Shown here: one piece after another, positions 2,228 to 49,123 of the stretch
Layout: each line of letters opens with the position of its first letter
Position numbering within the stretch: position 1 is the first letter of the stretch
Program-made: the position numbers and the translations under genes
The notes under the pieces: model-generated
What the model saw: the letters and a program-made list of their open reading frames with translations, nothing else
The model's database searches: none
What the model was told of the DNA's origin: nothing
DNA from: Eledone cirrhosa
Taxonomy: Eukaryota
Assembly: GCA_964016885.1 (NCBI GenBank)
Contig: OZ024746.1
Location: 39,804,001 to 39,868,000, forward strand
Reading direction: 5' to 3'
DNA length: 64,000 bases

Positions 2228-3071
<844 letters not shown>

Positions 3072-3268
3072 GTAGATAAATCTACCAAGAGTTTACGGTA
3101 GTGTCCAATCCGTATGAAGAACTCAATGTAGTCCGGATATCATGGAAAGAAGAGATGCAATGAAAAATCACTTTCGGTGAAAGATAAACGGAATACAGAG
3201 TCAAGATAAAATATTTAAAAAATAATGAATAAAACAATGAAACAGTTCCTTATATTAAACAAAAAAAG

Positions 3269-3423
3269 TTCATTATTTAACGATCGTTTCTAGGATATAT
3301 ATGTGTTAGAATTGGCATGCATATTCAACAGATCTATGTACAAAATTATACAAAATTATACAAACTATCAAGATTAAATATACATACCAAACACACATAT
3401 ATGCCGTCTTCAGAAATAATGAA
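3269..3423 (-). ncRNA. Type I hammerhead ribozyme with long helix II (mirror copy)
   Basis: Reverse complement of 3591-3745. Confidence 0.75.
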
Positions 3424-3590
3424 ATATATTTATTGATAATAACAACAATTCAAAATTTCAGGTCCGTTTGGGAACGGAGTTCAAATTGACCAATGAAAAT
3501 ACAAAAAATTTGTATTTTCATTGGTCAATTTGAACTCCGTTCCCAAACGGACCTGAAATTTTGAATTGTTGTTATTATCAATAAATATAT

Positions 3591-3745
3591 TTCATTATTT
3601 CTGAAGACGGCATATATGTGTGTTTGGTATGTATATTTAATCTTGATAGTTTGTATAATTTTGTATAATTTTGTACATAGATCTGTTGAATATGCATGCC
3701 AATTCTAACACATATATATCCTAGAAACGATCGTTAAATAATGAA
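3591..3745 (+). ncRNA. Type I hammerhead ribozyme with ~115-nt helix II
   Basis: ttcattattt-CTGAAGA-[long stem: atatatgtgt/acacatatat, ttggtatgtatatttaa/ttgaatatgcatgccaa]-GAAAC gatc GTT-aaataatgaa; 10-bp perfect helix I. Confidence 0.8.
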
Positions 3746-3799
3746 CTTTTTTTGTTTAATATAAGGAACTGTTTCATTGTTTTATTCATTATTTTTTTA

Positions 3800-3881
<82 letters not shown>

Positions 3882-4813
3882 AATATATATATGGGGGTGT
3901 ATTTGATGGCGTTCTGAGTTCAAATCCTGTCGAGAATCTAATTTACCTTTCATCCTCGGGTGTCAATATAATAAGTACCAGTCGATTATTGTGAATCGAA
4001 TCGATATAATCGATTTTCCCTTTACCACTTAATTTTAACCTTGTATCTATATTAGAAATACTTATTACATCGTCAAACAAATTATCTGTATGGAAATGGT
4101 TACATTAACATTCTTGAAATTAAAGCAATTATTTCAATATGTGTTCCTTTCTTTGAAGCTTCTATAATCTATAAAACAATTGCTTACATAAGGATAAGAC
4201 CAAACATTTTATGGAAAAAAATTATATTTTATTGAATCTTAACTAGTAGACATTCTCGTAATTATTTTTATTGATTCCCTGGCGATGAAAGCAAAGTTTT
4301 TGAATGAGAGAGAAACTAAGAGGAACAAACCACCAAATACAATAAGATATTTAGCACCAGTTTTATGGTTTGGTTTCTCCGACAGCACCGCCTTTTCCTT
4401 CGCCAATATAAATAATATTCCTGATGTTTCTGGAGAAATCTAGTTTGAAAATATATGTTGTTATTGTTGTTTTTAATTTTGGATTTTTTATATATATTTT
4501 TTTCATTGAAAATCGCATTTTGAATTTGTTTCTTTATGCTTATTGTTTAGAAGAGTTACGGCTGTGTAGATACAATTTGTTATGCATGCAATGTTTTGCT
4601 TATGATGCATTTATGACTGTAGATATTTATTTAATGAACAGTTGTTTAATAGCTTCATTTTTTCTGTTTATTTTCCTTTCCAGTAAATTGCATTTTGTCT
4701 GTTGTTGATTTAGTATTATAAATATCAATTTTATTTGATTGTTTCTCTCTATCAACCAGCCCCCGCTCACTCTTTATCTATCTCTATCAAAACATTTCCA
4801 TCTACGTATATAC

Positions 4814-5815: not shown

Positions 5816-6448
5816 TATATAAGACTGTCATACTCTACAGCGTTAAACCTTGAACAACACATAAAAAAGATCAATACTAGAAGGTTAAACGAAAACACTA
5901 AAAACTTAAGTACAAAGAACACAAAAAAAACAGTAGACAATACACTACAAAACATAAATAAACCACACCTAAGTTCGTCCGCAATACTACTCCAGAGAAA
6001 ACCCAACGTACACAACTGTAACTGCACCTATCCTGACAACTGCCCCCTCGGCAATAACTGCCTGGAAAAAAATATTATTTATAAGTGTACCATTAAATCC
6101 GGAGGCAACGAGTGGTATTACGTGGGATCAACGGCAACATCGTTTAAATCTCGATTGTATAGGCATTCTTACTCAATAAAACACCAGAGCCAAAGAAATG
6201 TAACAACTTTAGCAGAAAAAGCTTGGACGCTCAGGGATAGCGATCAAAAGTTTACCCTAAAATGGGAGAAATTAGCTAAAACCCAAAGCTTTTCCAGGAG
6301 CCAAAATTTCTGCAAATTGTGTAATCTTGAGATTTATTACATAATCACACACAAGAAGAAACTGCTGAATAACAGAATTGAACGAACATTATTCTGCCGT
6401 CACAGAACTAAAACCCTTTTTTCCCACTACAAGCCGAATATTACATAA
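5816..6448 (+). pseudogene. PLE ORF C-terminus: Cys linker plus GIY-YIG endonuclease
   Basis: Frame is open upstream of the listed 6122 ORF: IRLSYS...CNCTYPDNCPLGNNCLEKNIIYKC...YYVGST..FKSRLYRH...CKLCNLE...LLNNR...CRH. Confidence 0.85.
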
Positions 6449-7340: not shown

Positions 7341-7396
7341 TTATTCTGATGAAATGACAGTAAATAATAACATTGAAATATTGAATGTCTGCATAA
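7341..7396 (+). ncRNA. Degenerate hammerhead motif in the PLE 3' region
   Basis: CTGATGA-aatg..catt-GAAA tattgaat GTC; helix I is poor. Confidence 0.55.
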
Positions 7397-7494
7397 CTAA
7401 AAGTTTGTAGATAGCAGCTGTTTTAGGTTATGTAACTGTTATAGAAACACGTGTCAATAAATTCCTTTCAACTAAACTGTATCCATTCAAATCT

Positions 7495-17757: not shown

Positions 17758-20700
17758 CTACAGGATGGTATACAGAGAAGGCCCATTTACACGAGCCATT
17801 CTCGCCACTATCACCCACCTTTCATAAAACTGCCTGTGGCCAAGCACCTCTCTCTCCATTCTTATCCTTCTTCCGAAGTGATATCGGAAGAAGTAGACCA
17901 GACTATGGCCAGAGAGGAAGTTGCCTGACCTCAGACCTTTCAATCGTGTCCACCAAACAACCTCTTTTAACATGGCTATTACGCACAGAAAAACCGCCTT
18001 TGCTTCCTTTGTGAAGAGGGGAGGCGGTTTGATTGTCATCGCGTACTCGGCGGTCAATTGAATCGGCGCCACCCGCGACAGCAGTCGTTCGGCGTAGCCC
18101 CACAGATCAGCCACGCCCGGATATTGCACCTATGCGTGCGCAACGGTTTCTTCGTGACGCACGCATCTAGGGCAAATTCGAGGGATCCCTGCCCGGGCGC
18201 CCGTGTCTGTAGAGCCTCTCTCGAACGGGTAGAGCCCCCCGGTAGCACTGCCAGGCTAGTGACTTCTGGAAGTTGTCCATTGGTCCCGGGCCGAAAGTCC
18301 TACCGAACAGGCTGGCCAGTTCGTCCTCTTCCATGTCCAGCGACTCTCCAAGGGTGTCATCGCCCCTGCTAGCCACCAGCCCTCTATAGAATGATGAGGT
18401 GGATTCTCCACCGATGGCCTGGCCCGCTTGCCAGAGAGCCCTGAGCGCCTGAGCACACTCAGTGTGCCAGTCTCCCAGTTTTCCGGATCTTTGCTTGACC
18501 CAGGACTGTAGCTCGGTGAGCGAGGTGAGTCTCGGTAAGGCTCGTTTCACGAACGGAGCCCACACCGGTTGACCAGTGAGGAATACCTGTAGGTGCCGTA
18601 GCCTTAATGCGTGCTTACGCATCATCAACCACAGCATCCCCAGCCCTCCTTTCGAAGGTTGTTGGCAGCAGATGGATCTTCTCACCATAGGAGGGCGCTT
18701 CTTCCAAAGAAATTGGAAGAGCATGCGTTCCATGGTGGTGAGTGTTTCCTTAGGGCAAGGCACGACAGTCAGGCGGTAGTAAGTGACGGACGCTATGTAA
18801 ATGTTCGCCACCTCCGCCCGGCCTTTTAGGGACAGCTTACACTTGGCCCATTTCTGGGTTAGTGCAAACACCTTGTTCGTAACTTCGCCCAGTTCTTTTC
18901 CACCTGGAGGTCCGGTCCAAACCAGACCCCAAGCAATTTTACCGGGCCCTCCGTCCAGTGTCCGACGACACCGTCGGGAGGCATCGGTCTGCCTCTCCAC
19001 GTTCCGAGTTGCAGCCCGATGGATTTTTCCCGGTTCAGTTTCGCTCCTGACAACCTTTCGTAATCCTCCAGTAAGGTACCGATCGCCTCGATCTCCGAGT
19101 CGGTCGATACCATTACTGTTACGTCATCGGCGTAGGCCGACACCGCTTTGCTCAATCCTGGTTCCAGGGGGATACCCTGCAACAACTCTAACTTCCTCAG
19201 TAAAGGCTCGAGAGTCAATACGTACAGAAGGGAGGAGAGAGGGCACCCCTGTCGAATGGATCGTGTGATTTCGAACGGCTTCGAAAGGTAGCCGCTCACC
19301 TTGATCCTAGAACAGATGTGGTTGCTATGTAAGGCAGTGATCCAGCCTCTGAAAACAGGACCGAACCTAGCCGCCGCTAGCACCGCATCCAGGTAACCAT
19401 GGTCGACCCTATCGAAGGCCTTAGACTGATCCAAGTTGATCAGGGCCCCACCGAAGCCGGGTTTGTTGCCAACCCTCTCTATGATGTATCGCATGAGGTG
19501 GAGGTTATCGTGAATGGACCTGGATGGGATAGCACATGTCTGCGCATCTCCCACCAGGCTAACCACGACAAGCGCCAACCTCTTTGCTAACACCTTGGCC
19601 AAAATCTTTAACTCTGTGTTTAGCAGGGTTATGGGCCGAAAATTATTTATACTATCCCCCTTGTTCTCGTCCTTCCTCACCAGCGAGACTACGCCCTTGG
19701 CTACAGAACAAGGAATTCTCCCGTTCTGCTGCCAATTGCAGTAGACCGCTTCGAGGAGTTCGGAGAAGAAGACCGGCATTGCTAAATAAAGTTCGTAAGG
19801 TATACCATCGAGACCTGGAGATTTGCGTCTGCTGCATTGGCTCAGCACATCTCCGATCTCATCAGCCGGGATTGGTCCCTCGCAGGACTCTGCCTCTTCG
19901 CTCGAGAGACGTGGTAGGCCGTCGAGGTATGGACCGAAATCCACGTCCCCGCCCGGACCCTCGCCTCCCCCGAATAATCGGGCAAAGTGCCTTTGAAAGG
20001 CCTCGCACATCTGCTTAGGCTCCCGGATCACCCGTCCATCCTCGTCTTGCAACGACCGGATGGTGGATCGATTTCCACTCTTAGCTTCTGTCACGCGGGC
20101 CCAGCCAACGGCTTTGGCCCCCTCATTACCTAGAGCACGTATTTTACTTCGAATGACGCAGCCTTCGTGCTTTGCATCGAAAAACTGGTTCAAGGCCGTC
20201 CTCGATGCCAGCACTCTGGCCACATCTTCGCTCTTGATTGCCTCTTCTAATTTGCCTGTTAATTCTTTCTCGTTTCTATTCCTATCGGCAGCTAACATCT
20301 TGCTATAACTTATTGATTCTGTTCTAATCTCTCTTTTGAGAGATGCCCACCATCGGTTGTTAACGATTGCACCCGTCAACCTCTCCTTAACTAATCTGCT
20401 AATCCGGTTTCTGTAAGTCTCTTTTGCCGGTAAAGCCAAATTAAGTTTCCAGTAACCGGGACCCTGTTTATGTGTTTTCTCGAGATTGACTACGCAGGTC
20501 ACTAATTTGTGATCCGTATAGCCAACCGTGCGCATTTCTGGACAGCTTAATATGTCCCTATCCTTACTTCTAACTAAGAATCTATCTAAGTACGATCTAG
20601 ATTGACCACTGTGGTTTCTCCAAGTTCAGGTAGGCACAGTTGGAAAATCTAGTCGATATCTATCGACCAAGTTAAAACGGTCGAGTAACCCCTTGAGGCT

Positions 20701-21189
20701 GTTACACCCCCCTCTATTAGGACATGCTCCTGCATAGTCCCAACGTGCATCTAGGATGTCATTCCAATCCCCCGCTAGAAGCAGGGAACGCGACATTCCC
20801 AGAAAAGTCTCCAAACGCTGGAAGAAGTCGGGCCGTTCAGCTCCGAAAGGTGAGTAGACGGCGACCAGTCTCAAGGCCGCACCTTCACTACTGCCAACGT
20901 CTACCACCAACAAACGACCCTCCGGGTTCGAGTGAACAACCTGTACGGCAAGACCCAGGTGTTTTTGCAGCAGTACGACAACCCCACCCCCACCTCCAGG
21001 TTGACAGAGAGATGCATGCACCTCAAAGTCATCGAAGGTAGGGACCAGCTGCCGCACGACGCTGATCCGAGTCTCACAGATAACCATTACATTTATACCA
21101 CATGACCTGAGGTCATTTAGAAGCTTTGCTTGCTTCCAAGTTGAGCCCAGGCCACGTGCATTCAAACATCCTACTCTTAACACATCCAT
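17758..21189 (-). pseudogene. Tx1 ORF2 (AP endonuclease plus reverse transcriptase), disrupted by stops and frameshifts
   Basis: GCLNARGL, AGDWN, TDHK, GPGYWKLN, SPGLDG, FRPITLLN, DQSKAFDRV, RQGCPLS, AYADD, GGLG, split over four ORFs. Confidence 0.93.
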
Positions 21190-21222
21190 GTGGGCGGCAG
21201 AGCCAAAGGAGAGTGTAGAGAC

Positions 21223-23139
21223 CTACCTTTCTGCTTCCCGGGGTTCGGGTCGCACGACTTCCATGGGGTCGGGGGTGTTGGGTGAAGAGGTGTCTTGTGG
21301 TGGTGTGGGGTCGTCAGTGTGTGGTGGGGTTGGGGTGTTTGGAGTTGTGTTGGGGAGGGGAAGGGGAGGGGGAAAGCTTTTTAGTAGGACGCGGTTTATG
21401 GGTTTGACAGAGGGTGGTCCTACGTCCTCCTTAAAATCCTTTTTTAGTTTTTGGTAGAGGTTCATTGGGATTTTTATTAATTTTAAATGTGGGTAGTTTT
21501 CTGAAGAAACAAAGTTTACACCTTCGGTTTGTACCGAAGGATTATTGTTTATGAGTTCATTTAATTTATTATTGTTTCTGTTGATGTAAGTATAGTGTAA
21601 TGTCTTTTTTTCGGATGGTGTGAGTGTTTCGAAGAGGGGAGGGGCAGGTTTGGTTTTGTTTGTTGCTGGAGGGGTGTTTTCTGTTTTGTTGGATTGTGTT
21701 GACATTTGGGTGGGGGTTGTTTGGCCTTGTGTGTTTTGAACATGATTTCTTTTTTTCCTTTTAATCTGTCTGAAGGACTCCGTTTCTTCCTCCGAATTCG
21801 TTGGGTTATCTTCAGTGTTAGAGGGAAGAGGTATGTTTGCTGGTAATGTTTCCGTGTTGGTTTTCTTTGTGGGGGAGATGGATGTCACTATGTTAGACTG
21901 TGTTGTGTGTTGTGGCTGCGGTGGTTGTGTTGTTTTATTGAGTGAGGGGTTGGGTGGGCCTGTATTCTGTTTTGGGGTAATGTGTTGTGACTGTTTGTGT
22001 TGTGGTGGTGGTGTAGTTTTACTGAGGGACGGGTTGGGTGGGACTGAGTTTTGTTGTTTGTTTATCTGTTGTGGTGGTGGTGGTGGTGGAGCTGGTGTTG
22101 GTAGCAGGGTTTTCTTTTTGTTGAGTTGGGGACAAGCGGCCTTCAGGTGCCCTCTGCCTGCACAGATATGACAGGACGGCCTTCTCCCCTCCACGCTAAT
22201 GTTTATATACCCGTGGCCCTCTAATAGGATTCTGTCGGGTATTTGGGCGATGCGTTCAGGCTTCATTTGCACTACAAGCTCTATACCTGTTCCACTGAAC
22301 GCATTGCCTGTGGTTTTCCCAATGGAAATCACGTTGTCATTCACTGGATCGATGAAGCCAGCTATGAGCCAGCAGTAGTCCACATCTGGCATCATTGCAT
22401 CCAGCCATATGCGTTGAGTTCTTTTACCCATTTAAGATGGATAAAAGGTAAAAATTTTCGAACGAATCGGTGACAAAGCACATTTTTTTGCCGCCGATTC
22501 GTTCTTCATAATAATCGCTAGGCTTCCATATAGTCTGTCTTTTCTTATGAAAGTGGTTTCATTTAGTACTTCTGTGAGTACTGTTTTGATTTCTGCTTGA
22601 GTTGGATGTTCAGGTTTTTTAGAAGTGTTGTTGATGGTGCGGAAAACGAGCGTTCGACTTTCAATGTCTTTGGTGAGTTCTTGAGGCATTTTTACCGATA
22701 AAATACCATTCTCTCCTTAAGTTATATATTGTTTGGCGTCTGCAATTCTTTGTGCCACATCTGAAATATTTTCAGGTATATATGTCAAAGATTTCTTTGT
22801 TGTTTGTGCAATTGAAATCTTGTTGGTGTTGACTTTGTCGTCTGCTTTGCTTTCTGTTATGATGTTGTTTTCAAATGTTATTTTTGTGTTTGTTGTGTCT
22901 TTGTTTGTGGTATTAATATTGTCATGCAGTTTTCAAATTTTTTTTTTTTCGTTGTTGGAATCCATGTCCAGATTTGTGTTTTCGTCATTTTTCTCCGCAG
23001 ATTCGTCTGTTTTTATTTTATTTTTTCCTTCCTTCTCTATGACGTTAGTTGGGAAGGAAGGGGGGGGGACTAAAGCGTGCGAGCTTACAACTCTTACCGC
23101 TGTCCCCCCACCACCATTTTCGTTAGCTTCGTTTAACAT
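21223..23139 (-). pseudogene. Tx1 ORF1 (gag-like), fragmented
   Basis: CHICAGRGHLKAAC zinc knuckle, Pro/Thr-rich tail; ORFs 22933-23139, 22432-22689, 21223-22431. Confidence 0.8.
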
Positions 23140-27276: not shown

Positions 27277-27327
27277 AGATTCTACAGGACTAGAACTGTT
27301 TCATTCATTAGAAATCATCAGGAATCT
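27277..27327 (-). ncRNA. Type I hammerhead ribozyme (family F; island 27262-27441)
   Basis: Minus strand agattc-CTGATGA-t ttc taat gaa t-GAAAC ag ttctagtc ct GTA-gaatct. Confidence 0.82.
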
Positions 27328-30142: not shown

Positions 30143-30797
30143 TAGTACGGCTGTTACATAAATATAAGTATGTACACGTACATACATATATGTATACAGA
30201 CGTACAGTAGTATGTATATATACATACATGCACACATATATATATATATATATATGTACGTATGGATTCACCGAACATTTATAATGCTCGGTGTGTTTGT
30301 AAACAAACATCCCGTATTAAGCCGTAGTGTCTAGCAACCATCGTTGCTCGTTTGTTCAACACTGACAAAGGAACGCTGAACTTGTTTCAAGCTTATTAGC
30401 TATCGTCAGCAACGTATACCTTCCTGTCAGATTGTTGAACGTCTGAAAGTATATACTTTCCTTATGCATATTAACGGCTGAGTAGCCCAATTTGCATATG
30501 TGTATATATATATATATTATGTATATATATATACACATAAATACACATACAAACACATACAAACGCATACTTATATTTATGTTGAACAAACGAGCAACGA
30601 TGGTTGCTAGACACTACGGCTTAATACGGGATATTTGTTTACAAACACACCGAGCATTATAATAAATGTTCGGTGACTCCATACGTACATATATATATGT
30701 GTGTGCATGTATGTATATATATATACATACTACTGTACGTCTGTATACATATATGTATGTACGTGTACATACTTATATTTAAGTAGCAGCCGTACTA
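30143..30797. repeat. ~215-bp inverted repeat with 220-bp spacer containing an HHR (family H)
   Basis: 30143-30360 is the near reverse complement of 30581-30797. Confidence 0.85.
30373..30415 (-). ncRNA. Minimal type I hammerhead ribozyme
   Basis: Minus strand acgttg-CTGACGA-t agct aata agct t-GAAAC aa GTT-cagcgt. Confidence 0.78.
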
Positions 30798-40964: not shown

Positions 40965-41012
40965 GATTCTACAGGACTAGAACTGTTTCATTCTTTAGAA
41001 ATCATCAGGAAC

Positions 41013-44089: not shown

Positions 44090-44528
44090 ATTATTTCTAC
44101 TTTTGTAGTATATTACTGGTGCTTTATTTTATCGACCCCGTAAGCAATAATTGTTTCTACGTTAGGCACAAGGCCAGCAAATACCCAGTGCATTACTGGT
44201 ACTTTATTCCATCGACCCCGTAGGGATGAAAAGCAAAGTCAACCTCGGCGGGATTTGAACTCAGATCGTAAAGGGACGTAACTATGCTGGAAAGCATGGC
44301 GTCCGACCCTCTACCGATACTGCCAATCCACCGACCCCGTAAGCAATAATTGTTTCTACTTTTGGCACAAGGCCAGCATTTACCCAGTACACTACTGGTA
44401 CTTTATTTTATCGACCCTGTAAGGATGAAAGGCAAAGTTAACCTCGGCGGGATTTGAACTCAGAATGGCAAGGGCTGTAACTATGCGTCAAAGCATGGCG
44501 TCCAACCCTCTACCGATACTGCCAATTC
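44090..44528 (-). mobile_element. Cluster of three S1 SINEs (one partial, two near full-length)
   Basis: Reverse complement of the S1 consensus at 44090-44142, 44146-44333 and 44345-44528. Confidence 0.9.
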
Positions 44529-49063: not shown

Positions 49064-49123
49064 TTTTATAGCTCTGACGAATCCTACGGTTACGTAAGGA
49101 AGAAACATTGTAAGCCAATAAAA
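49064..49123 (+). ncRNA. Minimal type I hammerhead ribozyme (family I; island 49011-49162)
   Basis: ttttata gct-CTGACGA-a tcctacg gtta cgtaagga a-GAAAC att GTA-agc caataaaa. Confidence 0.8.

What the first reader, a model, noticed from the sequence alone, without database searches (positions are those of the whole stretch)
3591..3745. Hammerhead with ~115-nt G.U-rich helix II and C/A at its base
Seen: the core halves are separated by a long self-complementary stem, helix I is a perfect 10 bp, and helix III is the palindrome acgatcgt. Typical PLE minimal HHRs have a short helix II closed by G-C. Inference: an unusual architecture in which the long stem might bind protein or be an editing substrate. 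The palindromic helix III fits the known dimeric mode of cleavage.
Basis: partly seen in the sequence, partly recalled or inferred. Interest (0 to 1): 0.7.

Follow-up and report, generated by a model that had tools for sequence, protein, structure and literature searches.

The report
Long-armed Penelope hammerhead, masked and edited
This is a hammerhead motif (a predicted self-cutting RNA) at the end of a jumping gene present in over ten thousand copies in this animal genome; its side arm is about five times the published length, the RNA is predicted to fold into an 'off' shape that lets uncut molecules be copied into DNA, and one sequencing run suggests that host enzymes edit its core.

Summary
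The anatomy is real: type I hammerhead core, 10-bp helix I, 116-nt rod-like helix II, palindromic helix III, GUU site. It lies in one arm of a 300-bp head-to-head pair of truncated pseudo-LTRs from a young Penelope-like retroelement with Hydra-clade motifs (413 exact copies, about 10,800 related). The long helix is selected: diverged subfamilies keep it by compensatory changes. Published Hydra hammerheads have at most about 25 nt there. The C/A base is not new: the published descriptor allows it. New here: (1) many copies begin near A3594 and run through the uncut site, with no excess starting at the cut; (2) RNA from that start is predicted to lose helix I to a conserved downstream repeat; (3) one run, probably RNA, shows seven sense-strand A>G sites absent or rare in DNA, including core A11.1 and A15.1. 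Best reading: a masked, dimer-dependent, probably protein-assisted ribozyme whose arm is likely a protein platform and an ADAR substrate. Cleavage is untested. The scan noted the long arm before on other DNA of this genome.

The parts
3591..3600 (+). Hammerhead helix I, 5' strand; likely contains the RNA start at A3594 (TC|ATTA, initiator-like, motif recalled)
   Evidence: 19 of 44 copies have their 5' end 2-10 nt before CUGA, 8 exactly at A3594
3601..3607 (+). Core box CUGAAGA (C3-A9)
   Evidence: U3-A8 covariant in sister families D, F, G
3608..3723 (+). 116-nt helix II rod: C/A base, G.U, G-C, conserved C/C mismatch, lower stem, middle stem, conserved apical internal loop
3724..3735 (+). 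GAA box, palindromic helix III (3727-3734) and U17; predicted cut between 3735 and 3736
3736..3745 (+). Helix I, 3' strand
3773..3794 (+). Two copies of the helix I 5' strand (3773-3782 imperfect; 3785-3794 exact), predicted to capture the helix I 3' strand
3509..3808 (+). Right arm: 5'-truncated pLTR copy ending at the short terminus (+208 from C3), then (TA)n
3069..3505 (-). Left arm: inverted 5'-truncated copy ending at the long terminus (+345, a 137-bp tail), then (TA)n
3269..3423 (-). Mirror copy of the same hammerhead in the left arm
3640..3741 (+). Family-level candidate A-to-I sites at positions equivalent to 3640, 3702, 3714, 3716, 3723 (A11.1), 3727 (A15.1), 3741; not assignable to this locus
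2240..3071 (.). (TA)n target, left
3806..3892 (.). (TA)n target, right

Best explanation
This is the hammerhead motif of a young, highly amplified Penelope-like retroelement with Hydra-clade motifs, carrying a selected 116-nt helix II, and it is likely kept switched off at the start of the element's RNA so that uncut RNA serves as the template, cutting probably only as a protein-assisted dimer. Shown: motif, copy number, link to an RT-GIY-YIG ORF, covariation, two fixed 3' ends, a 5'-end cluster near A3594, no excess of copies starting at the cut site. Predicted: from A3594 only 7 bp of helix I can form, the core strands zip together (UUUCUG/UAGAAA) and a downstream repeat captures the helix I 3' strand. 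Inferred: the element's protein starts reverse transcription at +208 or +345 on both cut DNA ends, and the two cDNAs join head to head, giving this locus. Inferred: cutting, if it occurs, uses two hammerheads paired through the palindrome, most plausibly the read-through copy with a full helix I, to trim or circularise unit-length RNA. Inferred: the long arm is a docking platform for the element's protein, and ADAR edits the rod as a by-product. This locus itself is a non-coding stub.
For: Element: copies flank or precede an ORF with RWR, DKT, YRDD, CxCX5C, YxC/YIG, CxxC and CxH, matching the Hydra description (PMC8557442 section 11). 413 exact core copies; 10,801 two-box matches vs 2 control. 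Selection: 16 of 40 pairs change on both sides, 0 of 500 shuffles reach it, slid controls give 3-9 (relatedness inflates the shuffle test). Lower stem pairs 8-9 of 9 within each of 6 families vs a mean of 5.0 across lineages. U3-A8 core in D, F, G. Uncut templates: 39 of 44 copies end at +208 or +344/345 and 19 of 44 start 2-10 nt before CUGA; copies starting at the cut site number 21, vs 21 and 4 at control sites, and 12 of the 21 reflect helix I microhomology. Masking: P(helix I) at most 0.01 in 9 of 10 representatives from the RNA start to +63 nt; 17 of 18 rows pair the helix I 3' strand downstream. Precedent: the anole PAc hammerhead cuts only with protein and uncut RNA is the dominant template (PMC11167929). 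Editing: in run X5, 7 of 7 run-specific differences are A>G; genomic G at A11.1 and A15.1 is 17 and 19 vs 12,321; 6 of the 7 sites are at least 0.7 paired in the predicted off fold, the seventh (3702) 0.5.
Against: No cleavage, protein binding or probing was tested. Folding is secondary-structure prediction on AU-rich RNA and ignores co-transcriptional folding and tertiary contacts. In the read-through context helix I forms in only 4 of 10 representatives and not in this subfamily, so the active context is unclear. With the natural start or flanks, the dimer MFE is not the double hammerhead. GUU is a weak triplet (PMC8879150 passage). X5's kind is not on record, it is a different sample from the DNA-like runs, it is one run, and contig depth is a poor measure of editing level. 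The RNA start is inferred from DNA ends only. The 44 copies are 44 of 61 listed on C1; 12 of the 17 left out were copies already held, mostly long, so 19 of 44 overstates the share (at least 21 of 61).
Confidence: 0.6

Rival explanations
1. ADAR-controlled switch: the long arm exists to recruit ADAR, which converts the conserved C.A into a C-I pair and loosens the core zipper (on), or edits A15.1 (off).
For: A11.1 sits in UAG opposite C and shows 17% G by depth in X5 vs at most 0.016% in three DNA-like runs. G as a proxy lowers zipper probability from 0.78 to 0.18. C/A is kept in families A-E.
Against: The same edits leave P(helix I) at 0.0. C/A also occurs on 14-nt arms too short for ADAR and in an algal element. 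A15.1 is edited about as often, which should block GUU cleavage (inferred from the title of Ludwig 1998 seen). Penelope repeats are already known as heavily edited (PMC5625713). A>G also appears in unrelated flanking repeat sequence in X5.
Confidence: 0.12
2. Catalytically dead relic: only the RNA scaffold (protein binding, priming, internal promoter) is selected.
For: No genomic trace of cut templates; off fold predicted; PAc transposes without cleavage in vitro.
Against: Catalytic boxes and the palindrome are invariant in 21 of 21 aligned rows (partly by selection of the rows). The compensatory C3-G8 to U3-A8 change is a catalytic-core pair. Helix I covaries at 6 of 10 pairs.
Confidence: 0.15
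3. Helix II holds a spliceosomal intron (GTATGT 3627 to TACATAG 3680), so splicing remodels the ribozyme, as in Drosophila virilis Penelope.
For: Donor-like and acceptor-like motifs recur in A-D and F; the Penelope intron lies 46 bp after its start (PMC2377424) and abuts its hammerhead.
Against: No joint across it in any laid run. The motifs are also parts of conserved stems. E lacks the AG and G lacks both motifs. The intron would be only 41-54 nt. A longer intron from the same donor was not testable.
Confidence: 0.08
4. The A>G signal is not RNA editing but expression, or presence, of genomic copies already fixed from edited RNA.
For: Single low-depth DNA contigs with many differences carry G at the same sites (X3 record 19, X1 record 4); other scan notes describe such fossils.
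Against: Depths differ from site to site (38 to 756) over 7-26 contigs, so the sites are not one linked haplotype. Such copies are about 0.15% of genomic matches.
Confidence: 0.1

Closest known systems
Hammerheads of Hydra-clade Penelope-like elements (Craig et al. 2021, PMC8557442; passages, section 11, supplement parts 1-2 of 59 read)
   Same: Type I motif in the pLTR, unpaired or mismatched base of helix II, short or palindromic helix III, (TA)n targets, inverted truncated copies, tail at one end, same protein motifs.
   Different: Helix II insert is 116 nt vs at most about 25 nt in their Hydra rows; tail 137 bp vs 30-40; unit about 6.8 kb vs under 3 kb.
Minimal PLE hammerheads (Cervera and de la Pena 2014, PMC4209133; parts 1-2 of 4 and supplement search)
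   Same: Dimer-dependent palindromic helix III, extra base after A9, U3-A8 variant, low activity expected.
   Different: Their descriptor caps stem II at 7 bp and loop 2 at 10 nt; consensus G10.1-C11.1; helix I is shorter.
PAc (Poseidon) hammerhead of the green anole (Frangieh et al. 2024, PMC11167929; parts 1-2 of 4)
   Same: Two internal reverse-transcription starts giving a tail; uncut RNA as template; both DNA strands extended.
   Different: PAc's ORF starts at stem II; here the ATG is about 495 nt after C3. No masking repeat or editing is described in the parts read.
Metazoan non-LTR retrozymes (PMC7229834 passages; bioRxiv 10.64898/2026.07.22.740005 parts 1-2 of 5)
   Same: Type I hammerheads in Penelope-related repeats; a U.U base of helix II is known in axolotl.
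   Different: Retrozymes are non-coding tandem units; this motif belongs to an ORF-bearing element and occurs as inverted stubs.

Membership tests
Type I hammerhead ribozyme | CUGANGA and GAAA boxes with NUH site | tested here: met
   (GUU)
Type I hammerhead ribozyme | Helices I and II close the core | tested here: met
   Covariation; helix I forms in the isolated 155-mer (P 0.98) but is predicted displaced in natural flanks
Type I hammerhead ribozyme | Stable helix III | tested here: inconclusive
   Only as an intermolecular 8-bp palindrome
Type I hammerhead ribozyme | C3-G8 pair or compensatory equivalent | tested here: met
   C3-G8 here, U3-A8 in D, F, G
Type I hammerhead ribozyme | G10.1-C11.1 pair of the canonical consensus | tested here: not met
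   C/A; published PLE hammerheads also deviate
Type I hammerhead ribozyme | Self-cleavage | not testable with these tools
   No assay; no genomic trace of cut templates
Rfam hammerhead families | Score at gathering threshold | tested here: not met
   0 hits in the window
[quoted passage not shown] | Stem II 3-7 bp, loop 3-10 nt | tested here: not met
   116-nt insert vs descriptor
[quoted passage not shown] | Palindromic helix III; optional extra N10 and N11 | tested here: met
Hydra-clade PLE | RT followed by C-terminal GIY-YIG; RWK-like, DKT, CxCX5C, CxxC and CxH motifs | tested here: met
   (RWR); by motif only, no Pfam hit for the ORF
Hydra-clade PLE | (TA)n insertion, pLTR, inverted truncated copies, one-sided tail | tested here: met
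Hydra-clade PLE | Generally short (under 3 kb) | tested here: not met
   6,840 nt between successive cores in L031; described as typical, not defining
Hydra-clade PLE | Phylogenetic placement of RT | not tested
   No tree with reference Hydra proteins was built
Non-LTR retrozyme | Non-coding tandem unit | tested here: not met
   Linked to an RT-EN ORF

The most novel reading that the evidence does not exclude
A natural hammerhead built as a host-editing-sensitive switch: a 116-nt arm recruits ADAR to the catalytic junction, where A11.1 and A15.1 are edited, and a conserved downstream repeat holds the ribozyme off at the RNA start, so host editing and the element's protein together decide which transcripts are cut and which are copied into the genome.
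Probability: 0.12. Interest if true: 0.82.

Novelty: new variant of a known kind. Interest (0 to 1): 0.52.

Why it matters
What Penelope hammerheads are for is an open question. This young family offers genomic read-outs: templates are uncut, start and stop points are fixed, and a conserved repeat is predicted to hold the ribozyme off. That makes the timing of cleavage directly testable with one 215-nt RNA. Over ten thousand hammerhead motifs in one genome escape both Rfam and the published descriptor, so counts in other animals are probably low and elements reported to lack hammerheads deserve a second look. If editing of core nucleotides is confirmed, it would link host ADAR to control of a transposon ribozyme. 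I found no such report in the held library, which lacks Lunse et al. 2017.

Tried and rejected
Rfam scan: 0 hits. Pfam: no family for three ORF pieces and only sub-threshold chance hits for five proteins. Sequencing-run search: no RNA holder listed; 6 runs of unknown kind, 3 studies. Intron inside helix II: no GT-AG joint; not excluded, since contigs drop rare forms. Naiad clade: rejected, the endonuclease is C-terminal. Retrozyme: rejected (ORF link). Copies starting at the cut site: no excess. My constrained dimer fold (-55.9) used an impossible topology and is disregarded. The MAFFT alignment A1 mis-registers the lower stem, so that stem was tested by ungapped register instead; the +2 slide scores high in A-C because of their (AU)n stem, and family G does not fit the register. 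In one search the ten '129' values are divergence from my reference, not ends. L004 leaves the element at +345, so positions past about 1935 are flank. The idea that G.U pairs are fixed edits was looked at only by eye (A>G derived at 3618 and 3698, mixed elsewhere) and is not claimed. The uneven X5 depth along the motif was not interpreted. Lunse et al. 2017 and Ludwig et al. 1998 are not held (titles seen only in reference lists); either may bear on the C/A and I15.1 claims. File 1 of the PMC4209133 supplement and the bioRxiv supplement were not seen. The host species was not determined; 'octopus-like' comes from earlier scan notes and genome character only.

Full report
Observation. The motif is as described: helix I 3591-3600 with 3736-3745, CUGAAGA 3601-3607, a 116-nt insert, GAA 3724-3726, the palindrome 3727-3734 and a GUU site. 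The insert folds as a rod on the sense strand only (z -7.97, 0 of 200 shuffles; antisense -20.8 vs -42.4 kcal/mol). It has 44 predicted pairs, 6 of them G.U. Rfam does not see it. It lies in the right arm of a 300-bp inverted repeat inside (TA)n, so a mirror copy lies on the minus strand.

What it belongs to. The genome is a 3.0-Gb animal assembly. All 41 matches of the first search were 99-100% identical. There are 413 exact copies of the 135-nt core and 10,801 matches to a two-box pattern vs 2 for the control. Longer insertions hold an ORF between inverted ends, with RWR, DKT, YRDD, CxCX5C, YxC/YIG, CxxC and CxH in that order. These are the features given for the Hydra clade of Penelope-like elements (PMC8557442). 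L031 and L038 have copy-specific frameshifts near codon 118; L032 is open over 724 codons but 5'-truncated. A homologue search gave 289 hits among 7998 scored candidates, almost all unnamed. No tree was built, so clade membership rests on motifs.

How this locus arose. Of 44 exact copies examined (44 of 61 listed on C1), 19 end at +208 from C3 and 20 at +344/345. This locus has one end of each kind, as do 3 of the 4 head-to-head pairs. This is the two-start 'tail' signature shown biochemically for PAc. Nineteen of the 44 begin 2-10 nt before CUGA, 8 exactly at A3594, which points to an RNA 5' end inside the helix I strand (inference). This locus's arms reach further upstream, to 3509, so they come from a longer or read-through RNA. 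All these cDNAs cross the predicted cut site. Copies that begin at the cut site number 21, against 21 and 4 at control positions 10 nt away, and 12 of the 21 are joins through helix I microhomology. Templates are therefore uncut.

The long helix is selected. Related families in the genome (my labels A-G) keep a 99-116-nt arm. From the core outward, the register C/A, pair, G-C, C/C holds in all 12 A-E rows, with near variants in F; G does not fit. The pairs beyond switch among A-U, G-C and U-A. Each family's strands pair at 8-9 of 9 positions, cross-lineage strands at 5.0 on average. On the alignment, 16 of 40 pairs change on both sides (0 of 500 shuffles; slid controls 3-9; relatedness inflates the shuffle test). 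Families D, F and G carry the U3-A8 core. The apical internal loop is conserved in sequence. Other hammerheads in these loci have 11-27, 51-53, 77 and branched 95-98-nt arms, so arm growth is general in this genome.

Comparison with print. The 2014 descriptor caps stem II at 7 bp and its loop at 10 nt but allows extra N10 and N11. The Hydra rows of the 2021 table have at most about 25 nt, mostly with U/U at the base; PLE-X1_cBra has C/A; the longest arm in the table is about 53 nt in a spike-moss element. So the length is new and the C/A is not. Ten library searches found no report of such arms or of edited PLE hammerhead cores; Lunse et al. 2017 was not available.

Predicted folding. The isolated 155-mer forms helix I (P 0.98) and two copies form the double hammerhead, 14.8 kcal/mol below two monomers. 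From A3594 onward the picture changes: helix I falls to 0.00-0.01, the core strands zip (P 0.78-0.94), and the helix I 3' strand pairs with a repeat at 3773-3794. Helix I is at most 0.01 in 9 of 10 representatives in this context. The downstream repeat is present in 17 of 18 rows and stays paired in D through G.U. It sits just before the short terminus. With 60 nt of upstream sequence helix I returns in 4 of 10 representatives, not including this subfamily. These are thermodynamic predictions only.

Editing. Run X5 (88 million contig letters, kind not on record, same organism label and study as X1-X3 but another sample) differs from three DNA-like runs at seven places in 3570-3800, all A>G: 3640 (41% of summed depth), 3702 (34%), 3714 (4%), 3716 (18%), 3723 (17%), 3727 (20%) and 3741 (21% vs 3.5-6.5%). 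The first six are at most 0.04% in X1-X3. The other six listed differences are shared subfamily variants. In the assembly, G at 3723 and 3727 occurs 17 and 19 times against 12,321. No X5-specific T>C appears in the motif, as would be expected if long inverted repeats were the substrate. None of the seven sites has a 5' G, fitting ADAR preference. Six are mostly paired in the predicted off fold. I infer that X5 is RNA and that ADAR edits the local fold. Contig depth is a crude measure, the signal is family-wide rather than from this locus, and one run is not replication. The rarity of these Gs in genomic copies suggests that edited RNAs are seldom the templates.

Mechanism and verdict. Most likely the ribozyme is held off at the RNA start so that reverse transcription can cross it, and cuts slowly as a protein-assisted dimer in another context; the arm likely serves the element's protein and is edited as a by-product (0.6 for the whole; about 0.9 for the identity alone). 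Rivals: dead scaffold 0.15, editing switch 0.12, fossil edits 0.1, intron 0.08. Earlier scan notes on other DNA of this genome reported the long arm, the fixed RNA start and edited genomic fossils; I tested the first two here and saw only hints of the third. It is a new variant of a known kind; interest 0.52.

Noticed in passing
window 5816-6448 (+) and 7346-7453 (+): 3' fragment of a second Hydra-type ORF (CxCX5C, YxC, YVG, CxxC, CxH) followed by a hammerhead-like motif with a 91-nt helix II, GUC site and a weak 5-bp helix I, then (TA)n.
   Followed up: partly
window 30379-30409 (-), 40981-41008 (-), 27294-27321 (-), 49074-49112 (+): Short-armed hammerhead-like motifs of other repeat families; only the first passed my helix I filter.
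   Followed up: no
window 18167-22431 (-): A LINE-like retrotransposon (ORF1 with a zinc-knuckle-like motif; APE-RT ORF2 in pieces), named from recalled motifs.
   Followed up: no
L091-L120: A family with a branched 95-98-nt helix II (two hairpins on a basal stem) and U/U or G-C at the base; 836 matches to the pattern, mixed families.
   Followed up: partly
L109, L136, L130-L132: Families with the U3-A8 core also carry a decoy CTGATGA inside the lower stem of helix II, which misleads motif searches.
   Followed up: partly
G000 C3:250970489-250970540 and similar: Some fold-back copies join exactly at the helix III palindrome.
   Followed up: no
Runs X4 and X6: Two other organism labels hold the motif: X4 one identical 214-nt contig, X6 several variants including family E-like sequence.
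   Followed up: no
X3 record 19, X1 record 4: Low-depth DNA contigs with 28 and 17 differences carrying G at the candidate editing sites: possible genomic copies of hyper-edited RNA.
   Followed up: no
L038 2725-4461 (-): A LINE-like RT fragment inserted in the 3' part of a full-length copy.
   Followed up: no
window 44133-44526: Two tandem copies of a 199-bp repeat unit.
   Followed up: no
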